From NCBI GenBank assembly GCA_036172245.1, contig JAYWIR010000035.1:1116001-1180000 (forward strand): a stretch of DNA of 64,000 nt. Direction: 5' to 3'. Positions within the stretch are counted from its first letter, which is position 1, and every line of letters starts with the position of its first letter. This document shows positions 3,225 through 64,000 of the stretch, in pieces. A model generated the notes under the pieces. The model made no database searches. It had not been told where the DNA came from and saw only the letters and a list, made by a program, of their open reading frames with translations. The position numbers and the translations under genes were made by a program. The DNA comes from Raillietiella orientalis. Its lineage: Eukaryota.

Positions 3225-3440
3225 CTTGATTTCCTGGACGGTGATGCGCTTTCTGCGATCCTTTTCCAGCATCCTCCCTATCAGATCTTTAAGTTCGGGA
3301 GAGATCTGACGGGTTGAAGGGAAAGACAAAGGCTGGTGCTGTATTTTGTTGTACAGGCTTATGATATTGTCGTCAACGAAGGGGACGTTGCCGTAAACCA
3401 AGGAGAACAAAGTGATCCCCATGCTCCAGACGTCAGCTGC
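3225..3440 (-). CDS. CAMKK: CaMKK coding exon 7 (subdomains IX-XI); gene continues toward lower coordinates
   Basis: ttctAG|AADVWSMGITLFSLVYGNVPFVDDNIISLYNKIQHQPLSFPSTRQISPELKDLIGRMLEKDRRKRITVQEIK|GTAAAG; 216 nt, phase 0-0. I did not find the next (HPW) exon in 1-3224. Confidence 0.95.
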
Positions 3441-3833: not shown

Positions 3834-4172
<339 letters not shown>

Positions 4173-7056
4173 CTAAGCGTCGCGTGCCGACATGACAAAG
4201 TGACACGAATCCCCACTCGCCCTTCCTCTTTCGACGGGAGGGTGGGTCTCCGTGCCGGGGGCGGAAGGCTACCCCGGTGCTCCCTGATACGTGGTTCCTC
4301 AGCGCGCTTTCTGCCCACCCCCCTGGGTGGGAACTAAGTTCTCCCGGCAGAGAGAGGGCGGGGTCCGAGATTCGGAACGGGATTCGGGAACAGCTTGCTC
4401 TCCTTCCAGGGCGCACGCTCCCGCTTCCCACCGGGAGTCGCCCCCTTTGGGATCGCAGGAGAAGGGCGAATCGACTTCTCGACGCGAATCTTCTTGCGGG
4501 TGGACGCGCGCGCCCCGGGTCCGCGAGCTTTCCGGAGGGCCGCCCGATCTCCTGCTTCGAAGCAAACGAGAGTTCTTCGCCAAGTTCGAGAGGGGGACTT
4601 TAATCCGAACTGATCGCGGTCTCCGTTGAAGATCTCCAAGGGCATCTCTGCCCCTTGTCTTCTTTTTCCCCCTTTCACCCACTCCTCCCCTTCGCACTGC
4701 GGCAGACATCCCTCCGCTGGATGGAACGGATGTGCCTCTGCGACAGTTTAAGAAGAGGCCGCTCCCCTCTTCCTCCCGACCGCACGCTTTCGGGGAGGCG
4801 GACTTCACGACGGAGGGAATCACGGGAATGGCGCCTGCAGTCAGATGGGTGGAGCGACCTCCCAGCGCATCTCGCGACAAGCAGGGATTGGAGCTGCAAG
4901 GTGCACGCGGGATACGAGGTGGTCCGCCGCTCTGAACACCCCACTCTCTTCTCACCAGCGCTCTCGAGGCGCGCGACGAGTGCTTCCCACTTTCTCCGCC
5001 AGGGTGGATCGCCAGTGGACAGCGATGGCGGCGACTCGCAATTGCCGGGGCAACGGGACCCTTCACGACTGCTTGCCTTTGAGATCGCGCTGGTCCGCCA
5101 GCGGAGAGATCGTTTCCATTTTCTGCGAAAGATGGGGAAGGGGATGTGGTGCTTTGAACGCGAGGAGGCATGCAACATCAGAATGGATGGAAAGTTACGG
5201 CACGTCAACTGTTTCTCCTGGCCACGTGTTACGCCACTTGTCCTGAAAGGGTCGGGGCGGTAGGACTGGAACGGCCGCATGCTGCTCATGTTGCGAGCAG
5301 ATGTTTCATGCCGAGTTATGCTGGAGCAACGCTCCACCAGCTCGTCTCCTTCAGCTCTCAAAGATCACAAGGTACCGAGCGCGTGCTCTTTCATCTTTCG
5401 GCTGGATCTTTTCATTTGCGCCACACGAATGCCCTGGCTCCTCCTGCCTTGACGGAGGACCGCGAACTGATTTTCCCAACGCGGCGCTTTCTGTTCCGAG
5501 AGACGGTTCGTCAATCCTCTTCGAAACTTGGAGGATTTGGTCCTGACGGCAGGCTGCATCGGTTCCAGGGGCAGATCGGTTTCGGATCACCATGGTGGGT
5601 TGCTGGTTCCCACAGATTTGCGCTTTCAGAGTGCAGGGTTTACAGGGGATAAAATTCCAGTTTCCCGGCAGAGGATTTTTCTAGAAGTGTCGTTCGCCCT
5701 GCCACACGGGTTCGCGGAGCAGAGTGGCTAAGGGCAGCATCGAGTTGGCGCACAGGGAAACGTGCGCGCGCTCAAGAAGCAACGCACACGCCCAGCCTGC
5801 TCCCCTTTGAAAGAAGCAAGGTGGTGCCCGTCTGAAGCCCAGCTAGTCGGAAAGCTTGGCGAGCCCAGCAACCCAAAGGGGAAGGAAGCGCAAAAGCTAG
5901 AAGGAGCTCGCAGACATCATGACAAGGAGAAAGAAAAATTACGCCATCGCAGCCGTGGCCCCGATCGCCAGCATCGCCATTCGGCATCTGGCCATGAGAG
6001 CAAAGACCGTAGCAGGTCATCCAGCAAATCACATAAATCAAGGCATTGTTCCCACAGCTCACATCGCAGAGATCAACATCACGAGATCCACAAAAGGGAA
6101 AGAGATCCCCCACTCACGAGATGGAAAAAATGGAGGAAAAAAAATAAAAATAAAATCAAGAGATGCCTCTGAGGAAAGGCGAAAGCTTCAAAAGCGGAGG
6201 AGGACGAAAGCACCATCTCGGGGGGCAGGATCGAACGGTGGATAGTCTTGGAAGAGTTTTGAAGATGGCGCGTGCAAGATGGAGTCCCAAAGCGTGCTGT
6301 TCCCAGAAAGCACGACCCCCTCTGCAGAGGCACCCTGGTCCGGAAATCGCTGCCTAGTGATGGAACAGATGCTTCGTCGAAAGCTTCACAAGGATGGCGG
6401 TGGTGATCAGACTCAACCTGAGGGATTTGTTTTGAGCCTGCGTGTCGGGCAGATGCAGCTGGAGTATCCCTGTAGTCAAGACGAGAAGAGCGAGAAGCAG
6501 AGACGAAGGGACACCCCGGAAAAAGACATGCATCAGGAACCAAGTTTGTCGAGGACGATGCAACGGTCTTCCTCTTTTCCTTGCGATCGGATCCTCCCCC
6601 TCTGCCTCTTCGTCCCCCTCAAGGGAACAACACGAGCGACACTGGGATGCTGCCGTCCTGCCAGCACCCCTGCCGTCAGCTACCGTCCCCCGTGAGCTGC
6701 GAAGCATTCCGTGGGTGAACTCCTGAGTGAGTTTACCCCTTATGAAGAAGCTGGCGGCTCCGAGCGGGCAGTAGCTGCTCCCGTCACGAAGTTTCTGGAG
6801 TCACCGATCCACCAGATCCCGTCGCCTTCTCCCGCCCCCGCGAGTTCCGCTGCTCCTTCCACTCGGTCGGAATCCGGGAGCGGGTGCCCCGCGGATTGCC
6901 GTTTTCGGGTTCGGCACGTGTGCTCGCTCCGTGCAAACGGAATTCGCGCTCGTGGGGAGAGGGGCAGACGGATCGAGAGGGCGCAGTCCCCTATTCCGGT
7001 TCTGGTTCCCACATCCTGAACAATCAAGATCCCGAACGATAGTGAGAGGTAATAAG

Positions 7057-8424
7057 CGCGTGTGTTTATCCCACGTAGATTCGTATACGAATTTGTTTCC
7101 TATTCGTATTTGTTAACGTACATGTTTTTATTAAGAGTATTATTGTTGGAACGGATGTATTTATGAAGATTCAGTGACGTACATCTTACCAATAAAATTA
7201 ATAAGCCGTTTATTACATTGTTGATGCACATATTAAAGAATATAATATATATATATGTTTATTATATGTATTCATATAAAGAGTAATGTATGGATTCATA
7301 TACATCATGAGGATGGTAAAAAATAAATACATGTGCTTATTATATATATACATATATATCCATCTATCTATCTATAAATGTTGATGTATATAATAAGAAG
7401 CATATAAAGGTGACCCTCGTATAACGCGCGGTACTTTTACAACGTCGTTCCGATATAACGCTGTCTACAAATCTCCGCGAATTGGTTCGATTGATGGAAG
7501 ACGGCAAGCCAAATACAAACGGTGGGGAAGTTCTACTGAAGACTCCGACTGCGCCGAGTCCGTCAGAGAGTTCGGTTTAAAGAAATGAGCAGAAGGATCG
7601 AATTTGGCACAGAAGTTAGGAAGTTCTTTTCCGGGCAATGCATGACAGAGCGCTCGGGAAAATTCAAGAGACAACTGGATGGTTGTTTGGCTCCATGCTG
7701 GGAACTCAGCAAGAGATTGCAGCATCGTGGTATGCAAGGTCCTGTCACAGATTTTTGGATAAGACAACCAGCTGAAGCATCCAGCGAGAATTGTACAACT
7801 GATGCCGAAGAGATTTCAAGTGATAACGGCATCCGGCCACTCGTAAATAGATAACATCCACGGAATATTCCTTCTGAAGACAGTGGTGATGATTAAAATA
7901 TTCCTATCTTTGATTTTGCAATGTATGCATCATGTACAATGAACTTTATATACAATTCCTAATTTTTATAATCTTATGATTTGTTAATTACATAGTTCAT
8001 GTTCTTTTAATCATATGGATTCTTGAACGAATAAAATGTGTTTTTTTTTTTAATGTCAAATTTTTTTTAATGTCATTGTTGTTTTTGTAATTAAAAAAAA
8101 AACTACAGAATATAACAACTCTACACTTTGCATGAAACCTCATACAACGCGATTTCTATAACGCGTGATATTTCTGGAACCTGACCTCCGCGTTATACAA
8201 GGGTTACCTGTGTATTTATTTTTGATCGTCTATCGTACATACACCAACAATGTAATCAACAGCTTGCCAATCTTATTCGAGAAATGTACGTCGCTGAATC
8301 TTAATAAATACATTCGTTACAATAAGAGTACTCTTAATGAAAGCATACACGTCAACAAATACGAATCTCTATATGTATATGGAAATAAAGTCGTATATGA
8401 ATCTACATGGGATAAGCACACGCG
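7057..8424. mobile_element. AT-rich non-autonomous TIR element with ~170-185 bp diverged inverted arms
   Basis: Arm 7057-7228 (cgcgtgtgtttatcccacgtagattcgtatacga...) is the reverse complement, with mismatches, of 8240-8424. The ORF track shows the shared peptide RVCLSHVDSYT on both strands. Confidence 0.75.
7407..8210 (+). mobile_element. pogo/Tigger-like internally deleted DNA transposon nested in the TIR element
   Basis: TIRs aAGGTGACCCTCGTATAACGCG / CGCGTTATACAAGGGTTACCTG, TA on the left and TG on the right, with subterminal TATAACG/TACAACG repeats. An internal remnant reads RSGKFKRQLDGCLAPCWELSKRLQHRGMQGPVTDFW, like a pogo C-terminus. Confidence 0.72.
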
Positions 8425-8929
8425 TTCACTTGTTATGGCGCTTCGGGATTTCGGTGGGCGCCGCCCTTCCTCCTCCGTCTCTCCCATCACGCGGCGTCGC
8501 CGGAAATCGCCCCAGAAGATAATGAATAGGTGCGCGGAGAAAGCGCACGACAGGCCCAACTTTCGTTCTTCAGCGTGTGGGGCTTAAGAGCGAGAAGGGG
8601 TGAGATCGTGATGCTGCAATCCTGGGCAAGGAGAGAGACGGGAGGGGAGGGAGGAGTGGTGATGTGGTCAACGCGACATACCCAGATCGCAGAGGAATCC
8701 CCCCCCCCCCCCCACCCGACTGCGGCGAGCGCCTGAAGTCGAGACCGGATGGCCGCCTAACCTGACTGGTCCCGAGCAGGGGGGTGGCGGAGGCGAATTT
8801 TCTGACGAACTCGGCCGAGGAACGAGGGAGAAGTTTGGGTGGACAGGAGGAAAAAATTTTCTCCGGTGACCCTTCCGCTCCTTGACGGAGCTCCGCACGA
8901 GGATCCAAGATCCCGTCAAGCTAAGGAAG

Positions 8930-9480: not shown

Positions 9481-9939
9481 GGCGCGTGCCGATGGAACGC
9501 AAGGCTCCTCTTCCCCCCTGTGACCAAGGCTTTCGAAGCGCCAAAGCAACTCTCAGGTCAAGGGGGGCAGGAGCGAAAGTTCTTCGGAGGTGCAGGAGAA
9601 AAAGGGTCGCACTGGATTCGGAGGCACGCGAATCCGCCCGCCCACTCGCCCGCCCGAATGGGATTCCTAAAGTGGGGACGACGGCGGCGCCCTGGGTGGC
9701 AGGGAGCGTTCCGACAACGGGAACGCATTTCGACTCCTGACCCGGGGAAGGGAGCCTAAGAAGACGAGACGTCAGAGGGAAGGCGCTCACGGGGGGAACG
9801 GAACAGCCGCCCGCTGGCACCCCGCGAAAAAACACCAAACAGCAGCAGCTCGTTACCAACAACGGCGAGCAACTGCTCTACCGACGGGTTCTTCTCAATC
9901 CGGAAGTGCCCGTTCATTCTTACACAAAGAAGCAGCGGG

Positions 9940-10260
9940 AACAACGACAATAAAAAGAAGAATAAGCATAAGAATGAAAAGGATAAGAATGAGAATGAGA
10001 ATAGTAATAGTAAGAATGAGAGTAATAATAATAAGAAGAAAGATAACAAGAATAATGATAAGAATAAGAAGAAGAAGGAAAATAACAAGAACAAGAACAG
10101 CAGCAACAGCAACAACAATAACATCAGCAACGACAATAATAATAATAAGTAGCAGCAGAAGAAGAATAAAAAGAACAAGAACACCAGTAATAACAACAGT
10201 AGCATCAGCAGGTGCAGCAGCAGCAGCAACAACAACAGTAGTAATGATAATAATGATAAG
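9940..10260. repeat. Compound trinucleotide low-complexity tract (AAT/AAG/AAC/AGC)
   Basis: Directly visible; produces spurious poly-L/I/R ORFs. Confidence 0.95.
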
Positions 10261-16953: not shown

Positions 16954-18260
<1,307 letters not shown>

Positions 18261-21504: not shown

Positions 21505-22418
21505 CGAGGTGCATCTCAAAGGTAAGGGCGGGTCGGATGTAAAGAAAGAACCAAATAAGAGAAAGAAAAATGTATGAGTGGTTCGAAAGACACACATTCC
21601 CATGTCATTTTTCTACGTGGTCACCATTTTTCTTCCCCCAAACACTTTTGATGCCGTGGAAGAAGCTCACTGAAACGATCTGCATGAAATTCCGCCTCCT
21701 GGGAGGTCAGTCAGCTCAGCACTGCAGTTTTCCACTCCTCGCCTCACCCCTCGGATCGCTGGGCCACTTCTTGAGATGGAGGGAGACGTGGTAGTCACTG
21801 GGCAGGACTGTAAGGTGGGTGATCAAAAAGTTCCCACCCGAATTTCCGAACTGTGGATGTGCGGGCAGCAGTGTGTGGGGCCAAAAGGATGTGCTTTTGG
21901 TGGAGTTTATGGAGCTTGGAACAACCACCACTTCACAAGTCCACTATGGAACACTTTCAAAACTGCCGTTCAGCAAAACCGACGAAAGTGGAATGCTGAG
22001 ATCAGGAATTGTTCTTCTCTTTTACGACAACGCGCGCCTTGGCAACATATGCTGTCCACACATTCCAGACAATTCGGAAATTCGAATGGGAACTTCTTGA
22101 TCACCCACCTTACAGTCCTGCCCAGTGACTACCACGTCTCCCTCCATCTCAAGAAGTGGCCCAGCGATCCGAGGGGTGAGGCGAGGAGTGGAAAACTGCA
22201 GTGCTGAGCTGACTGACCTCTCAGGAGGCGGAATTTCATGCAGATCGTTTCAGTGAGCTTCTTCCACGGCATCAAAAGTGTTTGGGGGAAGAAAAATGGT
22301 GACCACGTAGAAAAATGACATGGGAATGTGTGTCTTTCGAACCACTCATACATTTTTCTTTCTCTTATTTGGTTCTTTCTTTACATCCGACCCGCCCTTA
22401 CCTTTGAGGTGCGTCTCG
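21505..22418. mobile_element. Palindromic mariner derivative: two inverted 3' ends (~350 bp each) with a TA on each side
   Basis: TA|CGAGGTGCATCTCAAAGGTAAG ... CTTACCTTTGAGGTGCGTCTCG|TA. Plus-strand remnant reads VLLVEFMELGTT...GIVLLFYDNAR...ELLDHPPYSP...DYH...KCL..NGDHVEK*, a mariner DD34D C-half. ORFs 21570..21794(+) and 22129..22353(-) differ at one residue. Confidence 0.92.
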
Positions 22419-27190: not shown

Positions 27191-29729
27191 ACACTTGAGA
27201 CTAGGAGGCGTGCGGGTCTTCAAGGACCGTTTCCGTTTTTTATTTTTATTTTTCGAGATGTTCCGTTCGCGCTGGAAGGATGGTCTGCTGCTTCCCATTC
27301 GGGAAGAGAGATCTTACTGCCTTCTAGATGATTTTTCTTCCAGCCATGCTGGGGCTGCTCTCCTCTGGAGAGGTCTGTCCTTCTGCTTCGAATCATCGCT
27401 TTCGGTAGCAGCGTGAGTGCAATGGCTTCCCGGACCCCTCCTGCCTTGGCTTCCCGTTTTCGACTCGGACGTTGGAAGGATAGCAGTGGTGCATCCCATA
27501 GATGCTCATCGACGCAACTCCCGGGTTCCACCCGGCATCCTCTTTCCATCCGTTTGAACTACTCTGACGCTCCGAAGAAAAAGCCGTGACTTCCGAAATG
27601 ACGCAAATGGGGCACCGTCAACGCGGAACGCGATCAGCGGAAGCGAACCTCCTCTCTCTTTCTTCCTCCCTCTCCTCCTTCGATTTGTTTACTCGTATAA
27701 ACTGGACCATCCTCGGCGATTTCTTTGTGTATTCGCGCTTCCAATTTCCAGATTTTTCCTTGAGAGTTCGTCTCACCTTCCGTTCGTTCTCAACAGCGGG
27801 ATGTTCTTAGCCACGTCCCTGACCATTCCAAGGGACGCCCGTGCCAGCAGAGGCTCCGAATTTCAATGATTCCGGGAAAAAAAAAAAAATGGTTTCCTTC
27901 GGGATCGCGAGTCGGCGCATGCGGTCCGTGTTTTCTCTATTCGGTGCCGAGGTGCTAGGTTGCACCAGCCACCGCAGAGCTTTCGCTAGCAATCGCGTGC
28001 GACTTCTCTCCCCGTTCGTTAGCGTCCTACAGGTTCGCGCGCGGTCCATGACAACCTTCGAGTGGCCACCCTGTCTGCTCGGCTTGCCAATCCCCCCTCC
28101 CTCGGATACTGCTCCTCGGTACCAATGCGCATTCTTTCGACTTCGCCGCAGGTTCCACGACCCTTCCGGACAACTCGGAGGACTGCGTCTTCGGACCGAA
28201 ACCGCGAGCATTCTCCCAGATGGAGAGGTCGTGGAAATAACCGCGCCCCCTTCCACCCTTCCTCCTGAAATTCTTTGGCCCCAGTTTCTTCGCGACCTCT
28301 CCTCCCTTTCGTGCCTGTGGAAAGACACTCGGGAAGGCCACCACTCCACGAGACGGATGCGCCCTCTCTTTCTCACGGGATCTCATGTCTTCCGTTCTCC
28401 CGGAATATCCCCTACACGGGTTCCCAAGTGGAACAAAGATCTTGATTCGTTGTCGGAGGTGTGCGCAAACTAAACCAACCACAAATCTTTGATTTTTTGT
28501 TTTCCCTTTTTTTTCGCAGCAGGATGAAAAATGGATTATCTCCTGCGCTTGTCCACTATTCATCCTTCATGGGAAGGTTGACGGGTCGGCTTAAGAACCA
28601 GGAAACTTTCACGCTTGGATGGACAGTTCCTCAGCTCAACAGTTTTTTTCCAGGGCCCACTGGGCAGGTCGTGGCTTATAAACTGCCAGGGAGAATCGAA
28701 TACTCGTCAGTGCATCCCGGAGACAGCTCTCGTATGGCCCGTACGAGCGCTCTCGGTTGGCTCCTTGAGATCGAGCCAAGGAACGCCCACGTGCGTGGCG
28801 GCTGCAGAGATTTTCACTCTTCTAAAGGAAGTCGAGGACTGCACTCGTGACGTCTAGCAGGAGGGTTCCAAGCGAGAATTCCGCATTCACTAAATGGATC
28901 GAGAGGAGATCAAACGATGAAGGAGAGCCATCCGTTCGAGTGGAAGATCCGATGGAATCCTGGAACGAAGGAGGAACGGGACGCCGAGAGAGTTCTGGCA
29001 CCGCAACCGATGTTCCACTCGCTAGGCAAGGATGCCGAGGTTCGCTGTTTGTACCAGTGGTAACAGCTTGTTCGGGTGGCTGCAGCCGTTCGGAACACGG
29101 GAGCTCAGAAAAGCCAGAGGCTTTCTCGACGAATAGCAGCCGCAGCTCGAGACCAGGAGAGCGGATGATCCCAGAGAAACTCGAGCTGTGTAATTCAGTG
29201 GTTGCTGGCTGGCCACAGTAGTCACACACAAACTTTTGTTCCTGGAGATCTGTCTTGAATGTCCAGCAGCAATGGAAGGGAAGTCAAATCCCACGTCGAG
29301 ACGAGAGGACATGTGACAGGAAAAGTGCATGGCCGACTTCATCACGAGTGGTTGGTCAAAGAACTGGCTTGTTGCATGATAGGGGGCAAGGAACACAGAC
29401 AAAGTATCCCCATCGGTCGACCACCACGCTGGCAGTCCGTGCCTGCAACGCAGTCCGGTTCGAATCCAAGCAAAAGGAGTGACTGGTTCTTGATGGGCTG
29501 CAAGCCGGTCTTGAAATCTTCGAGAAGCGAGAACTGGGAAGGAGGGAAGCCGAAAACGAGAGTGGCGGGCAAGCAATCTGCTGCAGCCAGCGGCTGGAGA
29601 TGCAGAACCGATGTTCGGTTTCGAGCGCGTGTTCCTTCACAAACGGACGCAACGTAGTTCATTGATGATAGTGGCGAGTTGGTGCCACTGATTTACAAAG
29701 ACAAAACAAGAAATGAAAAACATGGGGAA

Positions 29730-29789
29730 AGGCAGGCTAATGTAGCTTCTATCCAATAACTTGACGCTTTTAAATTGCTTCAAAATTTT
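29730..29789 (-). pseudogene. Bacterial IS4-family transposase fragment (Wolbachia-like)
   Basis: KILKQFKSVKLLDRSYISLP closely matches my recollection of the ILKQF.SVKLLDSSYI.LP segment around the first catalytic Asp of Wolbachia IS4 transposases; not searched. Confidence 0.6.
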
Positions 29790-29790
29790 G

Positions 29791-29892
29791 AAAAGAAAAA
29801 AAGCTAAAAGAGGTAGAGAAAGTAAACTTTGTATAGAAGACAAGCTGCTCATGGCATTGGAATATATAAGGGAATACTGCACATACTTTCAT
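29791..29892 (+). pseudogene. Bacterial IS5/ISL2-type transposase HTH fragment (Wolbachia-like)
   Basis: The frame from 29761 gives KRKKAKRGRESKLCIEDKLLMALEYIREYCTYFH. This matches the GR..KL.IED.LLM.LEY.REYRTYFH motif (HTH of DDE_Tnp_4-type IS) as I recall it from Wolbachia/Rickettsiales; not searched. Confidence 0.75.
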
Positions 29893-31489
29893 CAAAAAAG
29901 CCTCATTTTCCATCATCATTCTTGCATTATTTAAATCTATTAATTTTAATGCAATGGCCATCCACGCTGGAAGCCCGCAGCGCGGAGAGAGACGAGCTTC
30001 GCTTCAGGCGAAGACTTTTCCACCTGACGATCCATCCAGCGATCTTCTCCCCGGGATGAGATCCGCGCCCTTCGACAAAGGAAGCAGCAGTGGTTACCCT
30101 GTTCCTCCAGCTTTCGAGTTCTGACGCGTGAAGAGCGATTCCACCTGGATTCCAGGGGCTTCCATCACCGCCACCTTCCTCGAAACCAGTTGCAGGAGGG
30201 ACAATTGGTTCCGGGAAAGGCAAAGCCGCCCCTTCCCCGGCTGCTCGCACCGAAACAAGAATGCACTCTGCACCGCAGGTGACCATCTTTATTTTAAGGG
30301 AAATTTTGCAACTTTGCCTCCCGTAAAATCGAATCATCTCATTTTTATTTAATCTTCCTCATTCCACCTAATCTCCTGCGCTCTCAGGCGCTTAAGAGCT
30401 GTGCGTGCATAATTTATGCTTCCAAGGCAGCAATTTGTATTCACTCTGGTGAAAGGTGCTCGGCACATGTTCTCGCTGCGACGAGACCAGATTGAGGCTG
30501 TCAGCTCATTATGATTTCATCATCGTTCCCGTTCTCCGGGTTATCGTCGGTCTCATAGTCGTGGTGCTTAATTTTTCCGTTTTCGCAAGGATCCGCTCAT
30601 CTATCGATTGAAGAAAGACACCACGCGAGAGGACTGACAAGAGGTCTGTCGGCCTTGCCATCCGCTTCAAGGCCTTGGCTCTCGAAGGCAGTGCCTTCTC
30701 CCTGAACACGTCGGCACCTTGGCCCTCCCCGCAGCTTCGTCTCTGGCCAGTAATCTGCTGGAGTCTTCTTCGCACCTCTTCCTGTTCCAGAGTTACGAGG
30801 GGAGTAAGCCCGAGCAAACCACGGGCACGAGCAAACCCACCCTTCCATCCCGCGATCGAACCAAGTGCGCCTCCTCCCCTCGCGTCCTGCAAGCGCTGGG
30901 GAGGCGGAGCGGAGCAGAATTTCGGAACCGGCGGGGAGCCGCGATCGAACCCCGCCGAGGCCCAGCGAGTTCCACGGTGTTCCGCTGAGCGCGGGAATCC
31001 AGGCTGGCAGTCCCTCCCTCTCCCCCCCTGCGCGAGATCTGAGCGGGCAGGCACCGCTGGGTGGACCATCGCGGAACCCGAAGGCGGGTGTGCCGCGCAC
31101 CGCGATTTCGCGACGGGTGGGTCGACCCCAGCCAGCCCCGCGCCGGCGTAGGAGTGGTGAGGATGCTACCGAACGCCATCCTTCTCTTCTTCCTCGCTGC
31201 CCCGCCGCGCATGCACGGTGGACGACGCACTCGCGCAGGTTATTGCGTGCCTGACGTGCATGCGCAAGCGCAAGCGGTAGTGAGCTTGAAGAGATGCGTG
31301 AAGAGATGTGTTCGCGCACGTGTGAGCACATACATCCTTTTTTTAAAAAAATAAGATAAAATAAAACAAATAAATACAACGCTTTGACCTGCGATGATAG
31401 AAATCCTTTCGGGTCCTGTTCCTGCTTTTTTTTCTTTCTTTTTCCAGGTTTTCCTCTTTTTTTGGTTCTCAGAGTACTGAAGACCTGTC

Positions 31490-32972: not shown

Positions 32973-33024
32973 CGTACATTCCGGCTTTCCTCAGCAGCTG
33001 CTTCTTCGAGAGGATCTTCATGGC
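32973..33024 (-). CDS. CAMKK: CaMKK coding exon 3 (catalytic Lys, AMK)
   Basis: tttcAG|AMKILSKKQLLRKAGMY+G|GTAAG; 52 nt, phase 0-1. Confidence 0.95.
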
Positions 33025-40725: not shown

Positions 40726-40779
40726 GTAATGATGATCGTCTTCCTGGTTGTAAGCAAGCTTCACGATCCCGTAGGAGCC
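40726..40779 (-). CDS. CAMKK: CaMKK coding exon 2 (Gly-loop)
   Basis: ttcAG|GSYGIVKLAYNQEDDHHY|GTAAG; 54 nt, phase 0-0; completes IGQGSYGIV. Confidence 0.95.
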
Positions 40780-46055: not shown

Positions 46056-46559
46056 CTGACCGATCTCCTTCTTCAGTCTGTACTGGTTGAGTCGCAGGTA
46101 CCCCTCGACGCTCGCCCTGCTGCTGAGCTTCATGGGCCTCCTCGAGGCTCTCGGGGACGAGCAGGGAGACCCGTAGGGCGAGAAAGGGTAGTTGGGGTAG
46201 ATGGGGCGTCGGATGCTCCTGCCGGATGTCGGACGCTGCGCCTCCGCTAACGTCGTCCCCGGAGCGGCTACCTCCGCGGGTCCATCTGCGAGCGGGCGGG
46301 GCGACAGAAAGAGGGTAGACGGGGAGGAGGGAGATAGGGAGGGCTCTCCACCTCCGGCCCGACATGAGCGATCCTCCGGCTCCCGTCCCGAGGCCACATC
46401 CAGGCGGCGGAGGCAGAACTGCACCGCCTCCAGTGCATCCGCCTCCGGGGAGGAGGAAGTTGGGGGAGATGGGGGGGAAGGAGACGACGGAGGAGGCTGC
46501 TCTCTGCTGCCGCCGACGTCGGGGCGCAGCGAGAGGTCCATCGCAGGGGGGAGCGTCAT
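46056..46559 (-). CDS. CAMKK: CaMKK coding exon 1 (N-terminal region, SP-rich regulatory segment, start of kinase subdomain I)
   Basis: Translates MTLPPAMDL...PIYPNYPFSPYGSPCSSPRASRRPMKLSSRASVEGYLRLNQYRLKKEIGQ, followed by a GTGAG donor at 46055 (phase 0). A pyrimidine-rich acceptor tctctgtgtctttcAG at 46609-46610 suggests the exon starts at 46608. ATG at 46559 is the first in-frame ATG after it, but the frame is open upstream, so a longer N-terminus is possible. Confidence 0.88.
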
Positions 46560-55249: not shown

Positions 55250-57400
55250 GGATCCACAACCTCCGTGCTTCACCTCCCTTTGTACTTTACGCAGCAAGCC
55301 ATGTCCGATATATCCGACCGCACGGACGGAGAACGGAGCACGGACGGCTTCAGAAACACTTTTCTTTCGCTTCCGACGGATTCACAGGTTGCAACAAAGT
55401 TGGGATGGCTACGCATAAAAGATGAGGAAGAGAACTGCTTGAGCAAGAAATGGTGAAGTTGGACTGAAAAGTTCACACACTTCAGATGAAAACACAAGGA
55501 ATTAAATGCTGTAGTTCTTAAACCGTCCTTTTCTACCAGGATTAAAATTTGCAGCATCTTATTATTTAACTTGCAGGTTCACGCTTTTCTTCCTGGACAG
55601 ACGATGTCCCTATCCGTGGTGCTCATATCATAAAAGAACGGATCCTTTCTCGGAACTTGGGTAATCGGGAACGACTTTTGAGGGATCCTTTTCGATGTGC
55701 GTGTTCTTGAAAAAGTAAGCGCCTGCTGGGGACTTCTGGAAGGTCCATGATCTGCTCCTGGCTTAGGAATTTCGATTCATCTTCATAAAAGAGGTGTAAG
55801 TCGACCGTGGACAATGGACCCGCTTTCCTAGTGTGGCACTTTCTTGAGAATCAATAGCTCGGATGTTGTTCAGCATTGCTCAGAGCCGCAGGCTCTCTTA
55901 TAACAAACAAACAAACTCCAGCAGCACATGAACTTGTACCACTGGATCATCGGCTTGTGTGTCTACGGACTCACTGGCATCTCATGAGGAGAGCCGCTAT
56001 AGGTCATTTTTCGATATTCCCCAAATTTCTTGGGCTTGCGTGAATGATGAGCTTGGAAATGAAGAGGAGAAAATTCAATATGGCAAACTGCATTTCCAGT
56101 AAGAAACGCAGTTTCTGAGGTAGAAGAAAAAAAAAAATTTTTTTTAGCAAAGATTCCCGTCGCAGTTTCGTTTACTTCTATTTTTCCTGGGGACACTACA
56201 ATCTTTTATCCATTATGCACTCATGGAATGTTACAGAGGGTTTCTGGAACGAATATCAATGAATTTCAGAAGTTTCAAAATACTATGAAAGCAAAGAATT
56301 TCAGAAATCCAAAGACATCTCCGGCAGGAAAGTAAAATTTCCTCTGGAAAGATTTGATTTAATTTTCTTGTACGCCCCCTATGCAATCGAAAACCAGGAA
56401 TTCTCAGAGTCGTAGCTCATAAAAAGAGAAGTAGAATTTTCAGGACTTTCAGGGCTTCCCTTCAAGTTGATTAATTCTGCGCACTGCCGCCTCTCTGAAT
56501 CCACGATTTTTCTCTTGATGATTTCCGAAATCATAACCAAATTCCAACTTTCTGTTGAAAAAAAAAAAGGAAAATAAAGAATACGGAGTTCAGAGGAGCA
56601 TTTGTTTCTCTTTTCCCTGAGCGCCCGATATTAAAGCCGAAACCGCTTGGTGCTGTTGGTAACCGCAGACAGCTTTCCTTTCTCCCCATATAAGGGCGCA
56701 TGCATTTTTGGATACATCAGACGTTCGTATATTCGAATGGATTTCGTAATGCGCCGTGATCTCAAAACAGTCTTCATTTTGAGCAGACGGTTCACACCGG
56801 AGAGAGCAGATCGGCACGTAGAATCTCCTATTCTGGATTTCAGAGAAGTCCCGTTTGCGACGTCAGCGACGCACACAGAGAGGTCCAAAGGTACACTCGG
56901 AAGGTGCAAGAATAGGCTTGGATTAAAAATGGGTCACAAGCGTTTTCGCCACCGTCCACGGAACGAGCAGCAGCTCAAGAGACCAACAGCTACCGAGTTC
57001 CGACCACTTCTCTGGAGCCCAGCGTTCCATCATCCGCATGCCCCTTTCGCATCGACACCCTTTCGTGCTCTTGTCCAGCACACACCCCGGCATCCTTTCC
57101 TGCGAGCCCCAATCTGGAAGATCCCTGGGCTTATTCAAAGTTTTCAAACGCTGATCCTCTCGAATGCCTCACAGACACTTCATTCACTTTCAGCTGGTGC
57201 AACAGGGAAAGACGTGTTCGCAGGAAAATCATTGAAAATGGAATGTACACCGACAGTGACAAGCTTCCAAGTGGCAAAATTCCATCTCCGAAACTGCAAG
57301 CCTCCCCTCTGAACGAATAAAACATACGAAAAAGTTTCGCACCACTCCCTTTCCTTGACAAAATGCCGACACACTTTGAAGAAGTCACTTTCAAAATAGA
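55250..57400 (-). mobile_element. Possible decayed DNA transposase (hAT-like?)
   Basis: Only the C-terminal ATCESVGSERKVF resembles the hAT dimerisation motif; the rest is coding-like but stop-ridden. Confidence 0.2.
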
Positions 57401-58419
57401 GACCGTTTTGTTTGTTTGTATGTTAAAATTCGCTGAGGTTTTGGGCCTGAGGTTTCTGTGGCACCACTTGTGAAGGATTCTTCCTTTTCTTCACTTCCCT
57501 TTCGCACCCACTGGACGTGGTAAAAGATCACGATGCCAAAAAGAGTAAAGATCACGATGCTTCAGATGATGCGTGGGATGTTTCAGGATCTCGAATCAAG
57601 GAAATGAGCGTGCTTTTTTTTTGTGCGTGTGTGTGTTTTCTTCTGCACCGTTCTTGGAGTCTCACTACTGCCGCCCCGCACGAGTTCCTGGCGGTGTTTC
57701 GCTGCGACTTTGAATTTTGATTTTTACTACCCGGGAGGTGCACGAATGGGAAACCTCGAGGAACACTCCGCTCGTGCACGCCAAGGGAACGCAGCACGCG
57801 GTCAGTCAGCTGCGCTTGACGGAAATCCTCTGAAATTTTCGAATGGGTGTTTACGTGAAATCTGCTGAGATGGCAAGCGTAGCGAGCAACACACTCTGCT
57901 TCTGGATGTAAAAAAAAAAAAAAAAAAAAGAAAACAGAAATCTCACGAGCCAGCTCCATGTCAAGAATCATGGAACCAGCCTCTCTGCTTTATTGGATGA
58001 GGGGATGATAACTTCGCCTCCCAATACAGAATCATAAATGTTATACCGAATGAGAGGCGTTGAATAAAAATGCACTTTATTAAACGATAATTACATATAT
58101 CCACGCCACGCAATCCATATCTCTTTAATCAGATTGATCGAATATTTACATAGTTTGAAACACGAATACGAAATGCCAAGACAAAGAGAGGCATTTAAAA
58201 TTAATTTCTTTCCTTCTACTCAACCTTATCTCAATGCGCCCATATTATATTGTCCCACCGGTTTCTGAAATAGCAGCTTGTCAAATGGACTGAATTTCGA
58301 AAGCATCAACAGCAGGAACTTATTCAAACTTTGTCACGTCCACCAACTGAGACACAATGAATTGGCATTCCTTTATCAGCCTCCTAATGCACCTTGCCAC
58401 GGAAGATAAGCTAATTCAA

Positions 58420-61440: not shown

Positions 61441-64000
61441 GCCCAATGAGAAGGTTTACGGACTCAACGGGAAAGCTTACATATCAATCAGGGAGCAAAG
61501 AGCGAAGCGCCTCTGCAGCAAATGAACCCGTGTTTCGCAAATGTCCGCGCTTGGAGGAGAAATCTTCGTCACCTCTCATCTCCGGGAAGGCTTCGAACGG
61601 GAGACCACGGAACGTGCACAGACGCCTCCTCCGCCGGCCAGCGCTCCGCACTGTCCTCACACTCGATAGCAAACTGCCTCTCGTCCACGGTCGGGAGAAG
61701 CGGCTCGCCGGATAGGCGGTCGGTCATGTGCGAGCCAACTGCGCATGTCCCTTTCCGGGACAGACGGGAACAGTCGCTGCCGGCTGCGGAAGTTTCCGCT
61801 CGCTTCCTCGTCGATAACGCCGGAAAGCAACAGCGTGGAAAAGCCGCTTCCCCGCGACCAAAATAAATAAATAAATAAATAAACAGGCTTCGAGGAAAAT
61901 GGCCTCGATAAAACAAAGAGCCTAGTTTCGGAGGATGGCTTACTTATAAAACGAGTGCGACCAACCGGTGGTTTCCTGGAGATCTCATGAGGCTAGGAGC
62001 TGGTGTTCCAGGGACATCACTTCACCGAGGCTGCTTCCCTGGATTTTTGCAGTGTCGTTTCGGAGATCTTCCCAGCCGAATTCGAATGTTAAGAGTAGCT
62101 CTGCTTCATATGGCGTAGATTGAGACCAGGGATAATTATGAGGGATGTGGCTAGGGATAATTATGTGGGGGGAGGAGGTGCAGATGTGGCCTTTCTTGAT
62201 CACGGAAGGAGTAGAGAGGAAGAAAAGAACCTCACATCTTATTTAATAAACAAGTACCACTGCAATGCTGTCGTTCGCTCTTAGACGGAACGCTTCTGTA
62301 GAAAACGTTGATAGAAAAATTGACGGGCGCAGTTGATTTCCATATACCGTTACGGTTTGTGTCCTCTCTTGCTGATCAACTTTATCCACATCCTGGGCAC
62401 GGGAGGAGGGGATGAGGAAAAAAAAACGAAATTTCGCAGAGAGAACTTTTTTTTTCTACATCTCAACTAAACAAGGGGTCCTGCACAAACTGCTCCTGAA
62501 CTCTTGTCGTTCTCTCTTGTTCCAGTAGGAGAAATCCTGGATTCCTTCTCGAATTCGTTCGATTACAATGAAATGTTTCTCGCATCGTTCTGACCAGAAA
62601 AAGGGGAATAATTCGAAAACAGAAGTTTCAGAAATCTCGGGTCGGCGCCTGGAGCACCTGTTTTCCAAGCGAGTCTTTGACGTATTTGCGCAAAAGACTT
62701 CCCTGTGATTGCTTTAAAAAAGGAAGAAAAAAAAAAAAAAAAAAAAAACTGCTCCCCAAACAAGCACCTCGTTTTTAATTTGCCAAGGTAAACATAAAAG
62801 GAAGGGAAAAATCGAGGGAGGGAAAAAATAAAATGCGATTTTTTTCCTAAAATAGCAGATTGTTCTAATTGATCTTCCTTTGTTCCTTCCTCCCTTCCTT
62901 TCCTTTTTTCTCCATTTTTTGTCCCGTGTTCCCTGCCTATGAATTTTTATTCCTATCTGGTAGCTCTGAAAGGCAACCAGAAGGGGCGATTCGGAAGCTG
63001 CAAATGAAACGAAGGCGCCAACTGGAACCGGTGAAATGCGAGTGTCGAACTGAAATGGGTGAAATCCGACTGCCTTCACAGTCGATTGCAACGATCAATA
63101 AATGGAATCGATTCGAACCACATGAAATGGAAGCATTCGAAAGTTCTGTGTCGTGCACGTTTCGTCTTCTGAATCCGTCCGTGCGACTCGCCGCATCTCG
63201 GGATGCTGCTTACCTTTTCGGAGGAGTCGGCCGGATGAGGCCCTATTCGCACATTTTCAAGATCCTTGCAGCCGGACTTTGCGACAGCCCCCAGCATCTC
63301 CTCAGCATGATCAAAGAGACAAATCCGCCGAATTTGTATTCAACGGACTCCTCATACTTCTTTTAATGCACAAGACATAGGGTGGAGACTTCGTTCCTGG
63401 TGTGCATCGCATCGAATGGTTCGGTCCTGCAGTGCAAGCCACGTCGCGACACCGTGTACTGTACAGGTTGGCAAAACTCGAAACTCCCTTCGAAGTTTAT
63501 CCTTTCCCCGCAAAGCATTCCACCCTGCTAGGAATGCTCGTTTCAGGCATCTTGCACACGTAGTGGTGTGACGCTTTAGGTTGCACCGCACGGAAGGGTG
63601 CTTCAGGTGAAAGAACCCTTGTCTGCAGGCGGAAATGCCAAACATTCTTACTCTGTGACCCTCCAAAGCATCCTGGGAACCACCCACCAACTGACGAAGC
63701 AGGATTTCGAATTCCTTCTCACCTTTTCATCTGCCTTGGCATGCATTCCGCTGAAGGATCTCAGAAGATCGAAATCCGTGGATGCAGATTTCTTCTATCT
63801 CTCACAGGAATTCCTACTCAACGAAACACCTGGAAAAGTTACGCTCCCAACTGTCTATTGCAGCTGCCCCTCTTTTCTTGCAGATAATGCACTAAACGCT
63901 CCCCTCCTTGAATAAGCCATTAGAATCCCTGTTTGCCTCTCGCCAGCATGAGCAGTAGGCAGCGAATGCTTTTCGATTACGTGAGAAACGGCTCGTATCG

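What the first reader, a model, noticed from the sequence alone, without database searches (positions are those of the whole stretch)
29655..29960. Mosaic of short endosymbiont-type IS fragments inserted in a CaMKK intron
Seen: a sharp ~305 bp AT-rich island in GC-rich intron 3. It holds abutting pieces in alternating orientation: 29730-29789 (-) KILKQFKSVKLLDRSYISLP, 29791-29892 (+) KRKKAKRGRESKLCIEDKLLMALEYIREYCTYFH, and two unassigned open pieces (about 29658-29729 FIDDSGELVPLIYKDKTRNEKHGE (+); about 29887-29960 AIALKLIDLNNARMMMENEAFLMK (-)). Knowledge (recalled, not searched): the first two closely resemble Wolbachia IS4 and IS5/ISL2-type transposases, which are unrelated elements. Inference: this is not one contiguous bacterial insertion but several 60-100 bp shreds ligated together. 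That fits end-joining capture of fragmented symbiont DNA. If such mosaics recur and are enriched for symbiont mobile DNA, they could be a small-RNA 'memory' of the symbiont, which is speculative.
Basis: partly seen in the sequence, partly recalled or inferred. Interest (0 to 1): 0.85.

Follow-up and report, generated by a model that had tools for sequence, protein, structure and literature searches.

The report
Bacterial transposase scraps in host intron
A 306-base AT-rich patch inside an intron of an animal kinase gene is a dead relic of DNA from an intracellular bacterium, carrying tiny pieces of two unrelated bacterial jumping genes; this kind of transfer is already well known.

Summary
Window 29655-29960 has 33% GC against 53% in its flanks, and all four quoted peptides are in the sequence. 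The island lies in a ~15.5-kb intron of a minus-strand CaMKK gene.

Two of the four pieces are identifiable:
- 29791-29892 (+) is codons ~37-70 of a bacterial IS5-family transposase. It matches Pfam HTH_Tnp_4. It is 82-88% identical at protein level to a family whose named members are Wolbachia proteins.
- 29721-29790 (-) is 82% identical in DNA to a broken IS4-family transposase gene on a Rickettsia endosymbiont plasmid. The nearest relative is therefore Rickettsia, not Wolbachia.

These two pieces abut head-to-head at 29790/29791.

The two outer pieces (29655-29720 and 29893-29960) matched nothing. Their open frames are what chance gives: 39% and 61% of shuffles reach them.

The island is therefore a non-functional nuclear relic of endosymbiont DNA. 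No donor genome and no sequencing reads could be reached to decide. No other bacterial-like piece was found in the parts of the 64 kb that were screened. The small-RNA idea is untested.

Verdict: new member of a known kind; modest interest.

The parts
29655..29720 (.). Contains the short hairpin-capable GTGGC...GCCAC.
   Evidence: GC 0.37. No match in plasmids or phages (only chance-level hits at E 2-7), the fetched IS loci, Rfam, NCBIfam or Pfam, or viral contigs by exact 20-mer. Its open frame is reached by 1948 of 5000 shuffles.
29721..29790 (-). Internal fragment (about 23 codons) of an IS4-family transposase gene, from the region that corresponds to positions ~97-124 of the 332-position NCBIfam model
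   Evidence: blastn 82.0% over window 29730-29790 to plasmid pREIP of the Rickettsia endosymbiont of Ixodes pacificus, E 1e-6, 2 places in the record. The alignment extends to 29721. tblastx gives 59% over 27 residues. The pREIP stretch scores NF033592 IS4 family. The window piece alone gave no hmmscan hit.
29791..29892 (+). Internal fragment (34 codons, about residues 37-70 of a 145-aa OrfA) of an IS5-family transposase: the start of its HTH_Tnp_4 domain
   Evidence: Pfam PF13613 E 1.9e-6. 88% and 84% identity to P0004 and P0005 and 82% to P0007-P0009. P0009 and P0011 are named Wolbachia transposase family proteins. P0004 scores NF033581 IS5 family. DNA is 80-84.5% identical to metagenome IS5 copies L063/L062 in blastn. 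Over the 96 aligned bases counted codon by codon, identity is 76% and 14-17 of 23 differences fall at third codon positions.
29893..29960 (.).
   Evidence: The overlapping segment 29887-29960 has GC 0.27. Homology to IS5 relatives stops at 29892. No significant match in plasmids (E 2-7 only). The search of 1.84 billion representative proteins with the minus-frame ORF gave only a spurious satellite-like protein. No exact 22-mer in viral contigs. Its open frame is reached by 3037 of 5000 shuffles.
29779..29792 (.). Perfect 14-nt palindrome TTCAAAATTTTGAA overlapping the IS4/IS5 junction (29790|29791)
   Evidence: Self-hit. Twelve of its 14 bases lie in the IS4 piece, and the pREIP copy has a similar imperfect palindrome. 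It is therefore mostly inherited from the IS4 sequence and is not a signature of the junction.
32980..33024 (-). Host CaMKK exon upstream of the island (AMKILSKKQLLRKAG...)
   Evidence: Motif search and splice context ...tttcag|exon|gtaag.
17314..17412 (-). Host CaMKK exon downstream of the island ([33 protein letters not shown])
   Evidence: Motif search. The kinase core HRDIKPSN...DFG...APE lies at 3954-4109.

Best explanation
The island is a dead relic of DNA from an AT-rich intracellular bacterium of the Wolbachia/Rickettsia kind. It became integrated into a 15.5-kb intron of the host's CaMKK gene, most likely as one captured piece during repair of a chromosome break in the germ line.

Shown:
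- It carries only short internal fragments of two transposase genes: 70 bases of an IS4-family gene and 102 bases of an IS5-family gene.
- It has no element ends, no catalytic domain and no intact gene. It cannot transpose or encode anything and has no function.

Inferred: the patchwork was either already present in the donor or was produced afterwards by deletions in the host. Endosymbiont genomes are littered with truncated, nested IS copies.

The bacterial ancestry itself I put at about 0.8. The confidence given below is for this particular route to the patchwork.
For: Bacterial ancestry:
- Piece 2 matches HTH_Tnp_4.
- Its nearest proteins are IS5-family (NF033581), 82-88% identical, and two are named Wolbachia proteins.
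- The nearest Atlas clusters are 100% Bacteria.
- tblastn of P0004 finds IS5 copies on plasmids of other intracellular bacteria: Fukatsuia 65%, Legionella 62%, Spiroplasma.
- Piece 1 is 82% identical in DNA to an IS4-family pseudogene on a Rickettsia endosymbiont plasmid.
- Island GC of 0.33 is what I recall for Wolbachia and Rickettsia genomes (about 32-35%).

Coding signature: differences from IS5 relatives sit mainly at third codon positions (14-17 of 23), with 10-13 synonymous against 6 non-synonymous codon changes.

Donor-side patchwork is plausible:
- In four Wolbachia genomes 71% of IS copies are non-functional, including truncated copies and fragments. IS4 and IS5 families are both present, and 18 nested insertions were counted (PMC3205602, passages read).
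- On pREIP the IS4 copy is itself broken and lies next to ORFs that I read, from memory, as remnants of another transposase family.

No support for a multi-insertion hotspot: the island is unique in the window, with no other IS4- or IS5-like piece.
Against: - No bacterial genome holding the IS4 and IS5 pieces side by side was found. The junction peptides CFKILKRK and EYCTYFHQ confirmed no locus in 38 genome loci or 32 metagenome loci.
- Both identifiable pieces are very short internal fragments joined head-to-head without any IS end. That needs at least two rearrangements on the donor side, or several deletions in the host. A single multi-fragment ligation would explain it in one step.
- Half of the island (pieces 3 and 4) has no assignable origin.
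- The two pieces have their nearest known relatives in different genera (Wolbachia-named and Rickettsia).
- Junction-spanning reads could not be examined (none was listed).
Confidence: 0.45

Rival explanations
1. Several 60-100-base shreds of degraded symbiont DNA from separate loci, or even separate bacteria, were ligated together and into a chromosome break in one end-joining event. This is how mosaic insertions of organelle DNA are thought to form.
For: - Two unrelated IS fragments abut within a base or two, with 0-2 bases of possible microhomology. They are in opposite orientation, and both are cut inside the gene.
- The two outer pieces match neither IS family nor the flanks of 70 fetched IS5 loci.
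- The nearest relatives of the two pieces are in different genera.
- Adjacent nuclear Wolbachia fragments from different parts of the donor genome are reported in Brugia malayi (PMC3849323, passage read).
- One event explains four pieces.
Against: - Non-contiguity in the donor was not tested, because no donor genome was reached.
- IS elements move between intracellular bacteria, so different nearest genera do not mean different donors.
- If shreds were drawn independently from a genome with a few per cent to about 10% IS (PMC3205602 table), two IS pieces side by side would be rare. IS copies cluster and nest in donors.
- Only one such island was found in 64 kb.
Confidence: 0.3
2. Assembly or library artefact: symbiont reads in the same DNA preparation were joined into the host contig, and the island is not in the chromosome.
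For: - The junctions could not be checked with reads (none was listed).
- Symbiont DNA is commonly co-sequenced with arthropod hosts (general knowledge).
Against: - The island is only 306 bases, embedded in tens of kilobases of continuous host intron on both sides, with host exons in order.
- A chimera would need two precise joins.
- It is itself a patchwork of tiny fragments rather than a clean piece of a bacterial genome.
- It carries a Cys codon (TGC) where all five aligned relatives have Arg (CGC or CGT in L063 and L062). This looks like a change after the copy left selection.
Confidence: 0.07
3. Fragment of a repeat resident in the host genome: a bacterial-type IS sequence acquired earlier and since multiplied as host repetitive DNA. 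On this reading the island is one decayed copy, not a fresh capture.
For: - The window holds other AT-rich islands that are host repeats with long inverted arms (7050-8430).
- The host genome was not available for a copy count.
Against: - No second copy in the window.
- No terminal repeats or target duplication around the island.
- The nearest relatives are bacterial throughout.
Confidence: 0.08

Closest known systems
Nuclear insertions of Wolbachia DNA ('nuwts') and other bacterium-to-animal lateral DNA transfers
   Same: - Bacterial-ancestry DNA of endosymbiont type embedded in host chromosomal sequence, non-functional and decaying.
- Short and fragmentary insertions, and adjacent fragments from different donor regions, are described for Brugia malayi (PMC3849323, passages read).
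- Transposase genes are among Wolbachia-derived transfers in the ant Formica exsecta (PMC13320244, passage read, citing that work).
   Different: - The donor is not identified. Only one of the two assignable pieces has Wolbachia-named relatives, at 82% protein identity; the other is nearest to a Rickettsia plasmid.
- The pieces are unusually small (66-102 bases).
- In B. malayi junctions were depleted in introns (PMC3849323, Table 5); this one is intronic.
Mosaic insertions of organelle DNA (complex NUMTs/NUPTs) and capture of DNA fragments at double-strand breaks by end joining
   Same: Short unrelated fragments joined in mixed orientation, with little or no microhomology and no target-site duplication.
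   Different: The source here is a bacterium, not an organelle. That the fragments were separate before joining is not shown.
Degraded and nested IS copies inside Wolbachia and Rickettsia genomes (Cerveau et al. 2011, PMC3205602; plasmid pREIP)
   Same: Truncated IS4- and IS5-family fragments lying side by side, without ends or intact genes, are what such genomes contain. The pREIP IS4 copy that matches piece 1 is itself broken.
   Different: Here the scraps sit in a eukaryotic intron. An IS4-IS5 junction like this one was not found in any bacterial sequence reached.
IS-associated transfer of Wolbachia DNA into a eukaryote (Miao et al. 2023, PMC10083226, passages read)
   Same: That letter links an IS (ISWpi4) with a Wolbachia-to-butterfly transfer. 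It also notes an IS5-family element in Wolbachia that clusters with Parachlamydia; the best species-representative genome hits of piece 2 were also Chlamydiae bins.
   Different: There a whole IS with flanking DNA and target repeats is proposed to have transposed. Here there are no IS ends, so transposition cannot have delivered the island.

Membership tests
IS5-family insertion sequence (NCBIfam NF033581; Pfam HTH_Tnp_4 + DDE_Tnp_4) | N-terminal HTH_Tnp_4 DNA-binding domain | tested here: met
   PF13613 E 1.9e-6, 27.8 bits against cut-off 27, profile positions 2-24 of 53 only. NF033581 E 0.024 on the 34-aa piece. 82-88% identity to IS5-family OrfA proteins.
IS5-family insertion sequence (NCBIfam NF033581; Pfam HTH_Tnp_4 + DDE_Tnp_4) | DDE catalytic domain and terminal inverted repeats (a complete element) | tested here: not met
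   Homology stops at 29892 in the best HSP of nearly all 70 fetched IS5 loci and in alignment A2. There are no inverted terminal repeats around the island. It is a gene fragment, not an element.
IS4-family insertion sequence (NCBIfam NF033592) | Similarity to the transposase core around the first catalytic Asp | tested here: inconclusive
   The link is indirect: 82% DNA identity to a pREIP stretch that itself scores NF033592 positions 97-124, E 0.005, with neighbouring ORFs at E 4e-14 and 7e-25. The window piece alone gave no hmmscan hit and no protein hit.
Nuclear insertion of endosymbiont DNA (nuwt-like lateral transfer) | Sequence of bacterial ancestry | tested here: met
   for 172 of the 306 bases. 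The other 134 bases are unassigned.
Nuclear insertion of endosymbiont DNA (nuwt-like lateral transfer) | Physical continuity with host DNA confirmed by reads or PCR | not testable with these tools
   The assembly shows host intron on both sides. No sequencing run was listed and no whole genome is held.
Nuclear insertion of endosymbiont DNA (nuwt-like lateral transfer) | Identified donor lineage (Wolbachia for a nuwt in the strict sense) | tested here: inconclusive
   The IS5 relatives include WP_082941444.1 [unclassified Wolbachia] and MBA8756965.1 [Wolbachia pipientis] at 82%. The IS4 relative is on a Rickettsia plasmid. Attempts to reach Rickettsiales genomes through the genome search failed.
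Multi-fragment (mosaic) end-joining insertion | Pieces map to non-adjacent places in the donor genome | not testable with these tools
   No donor genome was reached. The junction peptides found nothing in genome or metagenome contigs, which shows neither adjacency nor separation.
Small-RNA-producing archive of foreign DNA (piRNA-cluster-like) | Several foreign fragments clustered in one locus; small RNAs map to them | tested here: not met
   Clustering: no other IS4- or IS5-like piece in the 64 kb. Among 150 ORFs scanned out of 953 ORFs of at least 45 aa, the only mobile-element Pfam hit was this island. Small RNAs are not testable here.

The most novel reading that the evidence does not exclude
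The island is one of many genome-wide mosaics formed when shredded DNA of a resident or lost symbiont is stitched into germ-line breaks. On this reading symbiont mobile elements are over-represented, and the mosaics are transcribed within host introns and feed small-RNA pathways that act on the symbiont or its mobile DNA.
Probability: 0.03. Interest if true: 0.8.

Novelty: new member of a known kind. Interest (0 to 1): 0.3.

Why it matters
The island records that this animal lineage once carried, or still carries, an AT-rich intracellular bacterium with Wolbachia/Rickettsia-type insertion sequences. It is also a clean small example of how such DNA ends up in introns.

If the donor genome were available, the four-piece structure would tell whether symbiont DNA enters as ligated shreds or as scrambled loci. 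That is a small but open point about bacterium-to-animal DNA transfer. In itself the island is non-functional, and the phenomenon is well documented.

Tried and rejected
- **Sequencing runs.** None was listed for 29450-30150, so read laying was not used and the junctions remain unverified.
- **Whole genome.** None is held for the window, so copy number in the host is unknown.
- **Pieces 3 and 4.** Nothing was found by:
  - blastn against plasmids and phages at E 0.01;
  - blastn against plasmids at E 10, which gave only chance-level hits to unrelated bacteria;
  - Pfam and NCBIfam and Rfam;
  - tblastx and blastn against all fetched IS loci with flanks;
  - exact 20- and 22-mers in viral contigs;
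  - The search for homologous proteins with the minus-frame ORF 29640-29813 (9 candidates, none at E <= 0.1).
- **Representative-protein search.** The minus ORF 29773-30003 against 1.84 billion representatives gave one hit, P0006. It is a tandem-repeat, satellite-like protein matched by ten weak stretches, and I rejected it as spurious.
- **Piece 3, plus frame.** It could not be searched in the large protein database because 33 aa is under the 40-aa minimum.
- **Reaching Wolbachia or Rickettsia genomes through the genome search.** These attempts all failed or hit unrelated small orders or genera:
  - order or class of a bin;
  - the pREIP IS4 protein (0 of 401);
  - P0004 (7 of 401, best 69%);
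  - orders or genera of those hits;
  - PF01617 used as a marker (25 of 401, not specific);
  - one 56-genome genus (0 of 56).

  The nine short matches (window ~29768-29838) fall on A/T-rich low-complexity sequence, and I treat them as chance.
- **P0004 in other collections.** Nothing in viral contigs. In phages, only a 38% match in an Acinetobacter phage.
- **The 14-nt palindrome at the junction.** Considered as a junction signature and rejected. Twelve of its 14 bases belong to the IS4 piece, and the Rickettsia copy is similarly palindromic.
- **Earlier findings of this scan.** Nothing for this genome or these sequences.
- **Host species.** Not determined.
Full report
**1. The observation**

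Window 29655-29960 is a sharply bounded AT-rich island. Its GC is 0.33 against 0.53 for the 500 bases on either side, and only 1.1% of all 306-base windows of the 64 kb are as AT-rich.

Three are at the quoted coordinates. The fourth is on the minus strand at 29958..29887.

The host gene is a CaMKK-type kinase on the minus strand. Its exons have canonical splice signals:
- 46056-46091 (LNQYRLKKEIGQ)
- 40726-40779 (GSYGIVKLAYNQEDDHHY)
- 32980-33024 (AMKILSKKQLLRKAG)
- 17314-17412 (…[16 protein letters not shown]…)
- 3954-4109 (HRDIKPSN…DFG…APE)
- 3378-3434

The island lies in the roughly 15.5-kb intron between the exons at 33.0 and 17.4 kb.

**2. What the pieces are**

*Piece 2 (29791-29892, +).*
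- It matches Pfam HTH_Tnp_4 (E 1.9e-6).
- In the 5.8-billion-protein collection its nearest relatives are 145-aa proteins P0004 (88%) and P0005 (84%). Shorter forms P0007-P0009 are 82% identical.
- P0009 is WP_082941444.1 'transposase family protein [unclassified Wolbachia]'. Its cluster-mate is MBA8756965.1 [Wolbachia pipientis].
- P0004 and P0005 score NCBIfam NF033581, IS5 family.
- The nearest Atlas clusters of P0004 are all bacterial.
- tblastn of P0004 against plasmids finds IS5 copies in Fukatsuia (65%), Legionella (62%), Spiroplasma and others.
- In species-representative genomes, the pattern-based scan with the window ORF found 38 loci, mostly Chlamydiae bins, at 47-76%.
- In metagenome contigs the same scan found 32 loci, the best at 81% protein identity and 80-84.5% DNA identity in blastn.
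- The piece corresponds to residues ~37-70 of the 145-aa OrfA.
- Homology starts at 29791/29792 and stops at 29892 in the best alignment of nearly every locus.
- Counted codon by codon over 96 aligned bases, identity to the metagenome copies is 76%. Differences sit mainly at third codon positions (14 and 17 of 23), with 10-13 synonymous against 6 non-synonymous codon changes. The fragment therefore still carries the imprint of a selected coding sequence.
- One invariant Arg is Cys (TGC) in the window, where L063 and L062 have CGC and CGT.

*Piece 1 (29721-29790, -).*
- It is 82.0% identical over 61 bases (E 1e-6 in 7.3 Gb) to two places on plasmid pREIP of the Rickettsia endosymbiont of Ixodes pacificus.
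- The alignment can be carried to 29721.
- The pREIP stretch is part of a broken transposase gene. Its ORFs score NF033592, IS4 family, at E 4e-14, 7e-25 and, for the 34-aa ORF that aligns to the piece, 0.005.
- At protein level the window reads …KILKQFKSVKLLDRSYISLPFPM against …NILQQFNSVKLLDSSHIILPANM.
- The window piece alone is too short to hit the profile or the protein database.
- No Wolbachia relative of this piece was found.

*Pieces 3 and 4 (29655-29720 and 29893-29960).*
- They matched nothing in any search (listed under Tried and rejected).
- Their 'openness' is no evidence of coding origin. 39% and 61% of shuffles of the same bases have an equally long open frame in one of the six frames.
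- Their orientation is therefore unknown. 'Alternating orientation' is established only for the two middle pieces.
- Their low GC (0.37 for 29655-29729; 0.27 for 29887-29960) suggests they came in with the rest. That is inference.

**3. Anatomy of the junctions**

- The IS4 piece reads leftwards and the IS5 piece rightwards from a common point at 29790|29791. At most one or two bases could belong to either.
- Neither piece includes an IS end. There are no terminal inverted repeats and no target duplication around the island.
- The 14-nt perfect palindrome at 29779-29792 lies almost wholly in the IS4 piece and is foreshadowed in the Rickettsia copy. I do not read it as a junction mark.

**4. 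How it most likely arose**

Shown:
- At least 172 of the 306 bases are of bacterial IS ancestry, from two unrelated families.
- In the assembly they are embedded in a host intron.

Inferred:
- The island is a nuclear relic of endosymbiont DNA, captured at a chromosome break and functionless. Transposition cannot have delivered it, because no element end is present.

Three routes give the patchwork:
- (a) The donor locus was already a scrap-heap of IS fragments.
- (b) A longer insert was whittled down by deletions in the host.

For (a): in four Wolbachia genomes 71% of IS copies are non-functional, including truncated copies and fragments. IS4 and IS5 are both present, and 18 nested insertions were counted (PMC3205602, passages read). 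The pREIP IS4 copy is itself broken and lies beside other transposase-like ORFs (the family of those neighbours is my recollection).

For (c): one event explains four pieces, both identifiable pieces are internal fragments joined without IS ends, and adjacent nuclear Wolbachia fragments from different donor regions are reported in Brugia malayi (PMC3849323, passage read).

The decisive test is whether the pieces are adjacent in a donor genome. It could not be run. The junction peptides found nothing in genome or metagenome contigs, and I could not reach Rickettsiales genomes through the whole-genome tool.

My split is 0.45 for (a)/(b), 0.30 for (c), 0.07 for an assembly artefact and 0.08 for a host-resident repeat. 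The rest is unexplained.

**5. Comparison with what is known**

- Lateral transfer of Wolbachia and other symbiont DNA into animal chromosomes, including short and fragmentary pieces and transposase genes, is well documented. I read passages of PMC3849323 and PMC13320244, and for PMC4046930 I saw only the search listing with the opening lines of its abstract.
- A link between IS elements and such transfers has been proposed (PMC10083226, passages read). There a whole element is thought to have transposed, which cannot apply here.
- The island is thus a new member of a known kind.
- I ran no search of papers aimed specifically at mosaics of symbiont IS fragments, so I make no claim about what is or is not in print on that point.

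**6. The small-RNA 'memory' idea**

- Nothing here bears on it, except that the island is alone.
- tblastx of the whole window against all fetched IS loci hit only 29600-29999.
- A Pfam scan of 150 ORFs from 15-50 kb gave this island as the only mobile-element hit. These were 150 of the 953 ORFs of at least 45 aa in the window, chosen by amino-acid composition.
- The other AT-rich islands I inspected are host repeats or low-complexity tracts. Four further ones (31.3, 56.0, 58.0 and 62.7 kb) were printed but not separately searched.

**7. Verdict**

Novelty: new member of a known kind. Interest 0.3.

Noticed in passing
window 21523-21854 and 22069-22400: Two 332-nt arms, 98% complementary and 214 nt apart (they may extend further). 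This is a near-perfect foldback inside the CaMKK locus. Its ORFs gave no Pfam hit. A resemblance to mariner-type remnants is only my recollection.
   Followed up: partly
window ~7050-8430: A very AT-rich (GC down to 0.18) host element with long inverted arms (154 nt at 77%, plus a 27-nt inner pair), probably a non-autonomous DNA transposon. It shows that AT-rich islands in this genome are not all bacterial.
   Followed up: partly
window 9900-10260: Purine-rich low-complexity tract of AAG/AAT/AAC-type units.
   Followed up: no
window 29878-29880: Piece 2 has Cys (TGC) where all five aligned IS5 relatives have Arg and the two closest DNA copies have CGC/CGT. This is a C-to-T change at a CpG, as expected for decay in a methylating host genome.
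   Followed up: partly
window 40726-40779: An 18-codon CaMKK micro-exon (GSYGIVKLAYNQEDDHHY) carries the end of the glycine loop. It is flanked by cag| and |gtaagt. The kinase N-lobe is split over at least three small exons spread across 13 kb.
   Followed up: partly
L001 (plasmid pREIP 1-3957) and L052: Both copies of the IS4-family gene on the Rickettsia endosymbiont plasmid are broken into several frames, and in L001 the copy lies beside other transposase-like ORFs. By tblastn this IS4 type was found on no other plasmid at more than 37% identity: 4 records matched, and the other 3 were at 30-37%.
   Followed up: partly
window 31300-31476, 56000-56400, 58000-58276, 62676-62926: Four further AT-rich patches (GC 0.31-0.33 minimum). 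None matched the IS loci. Otherwise they were not examined.
   Followed up: no
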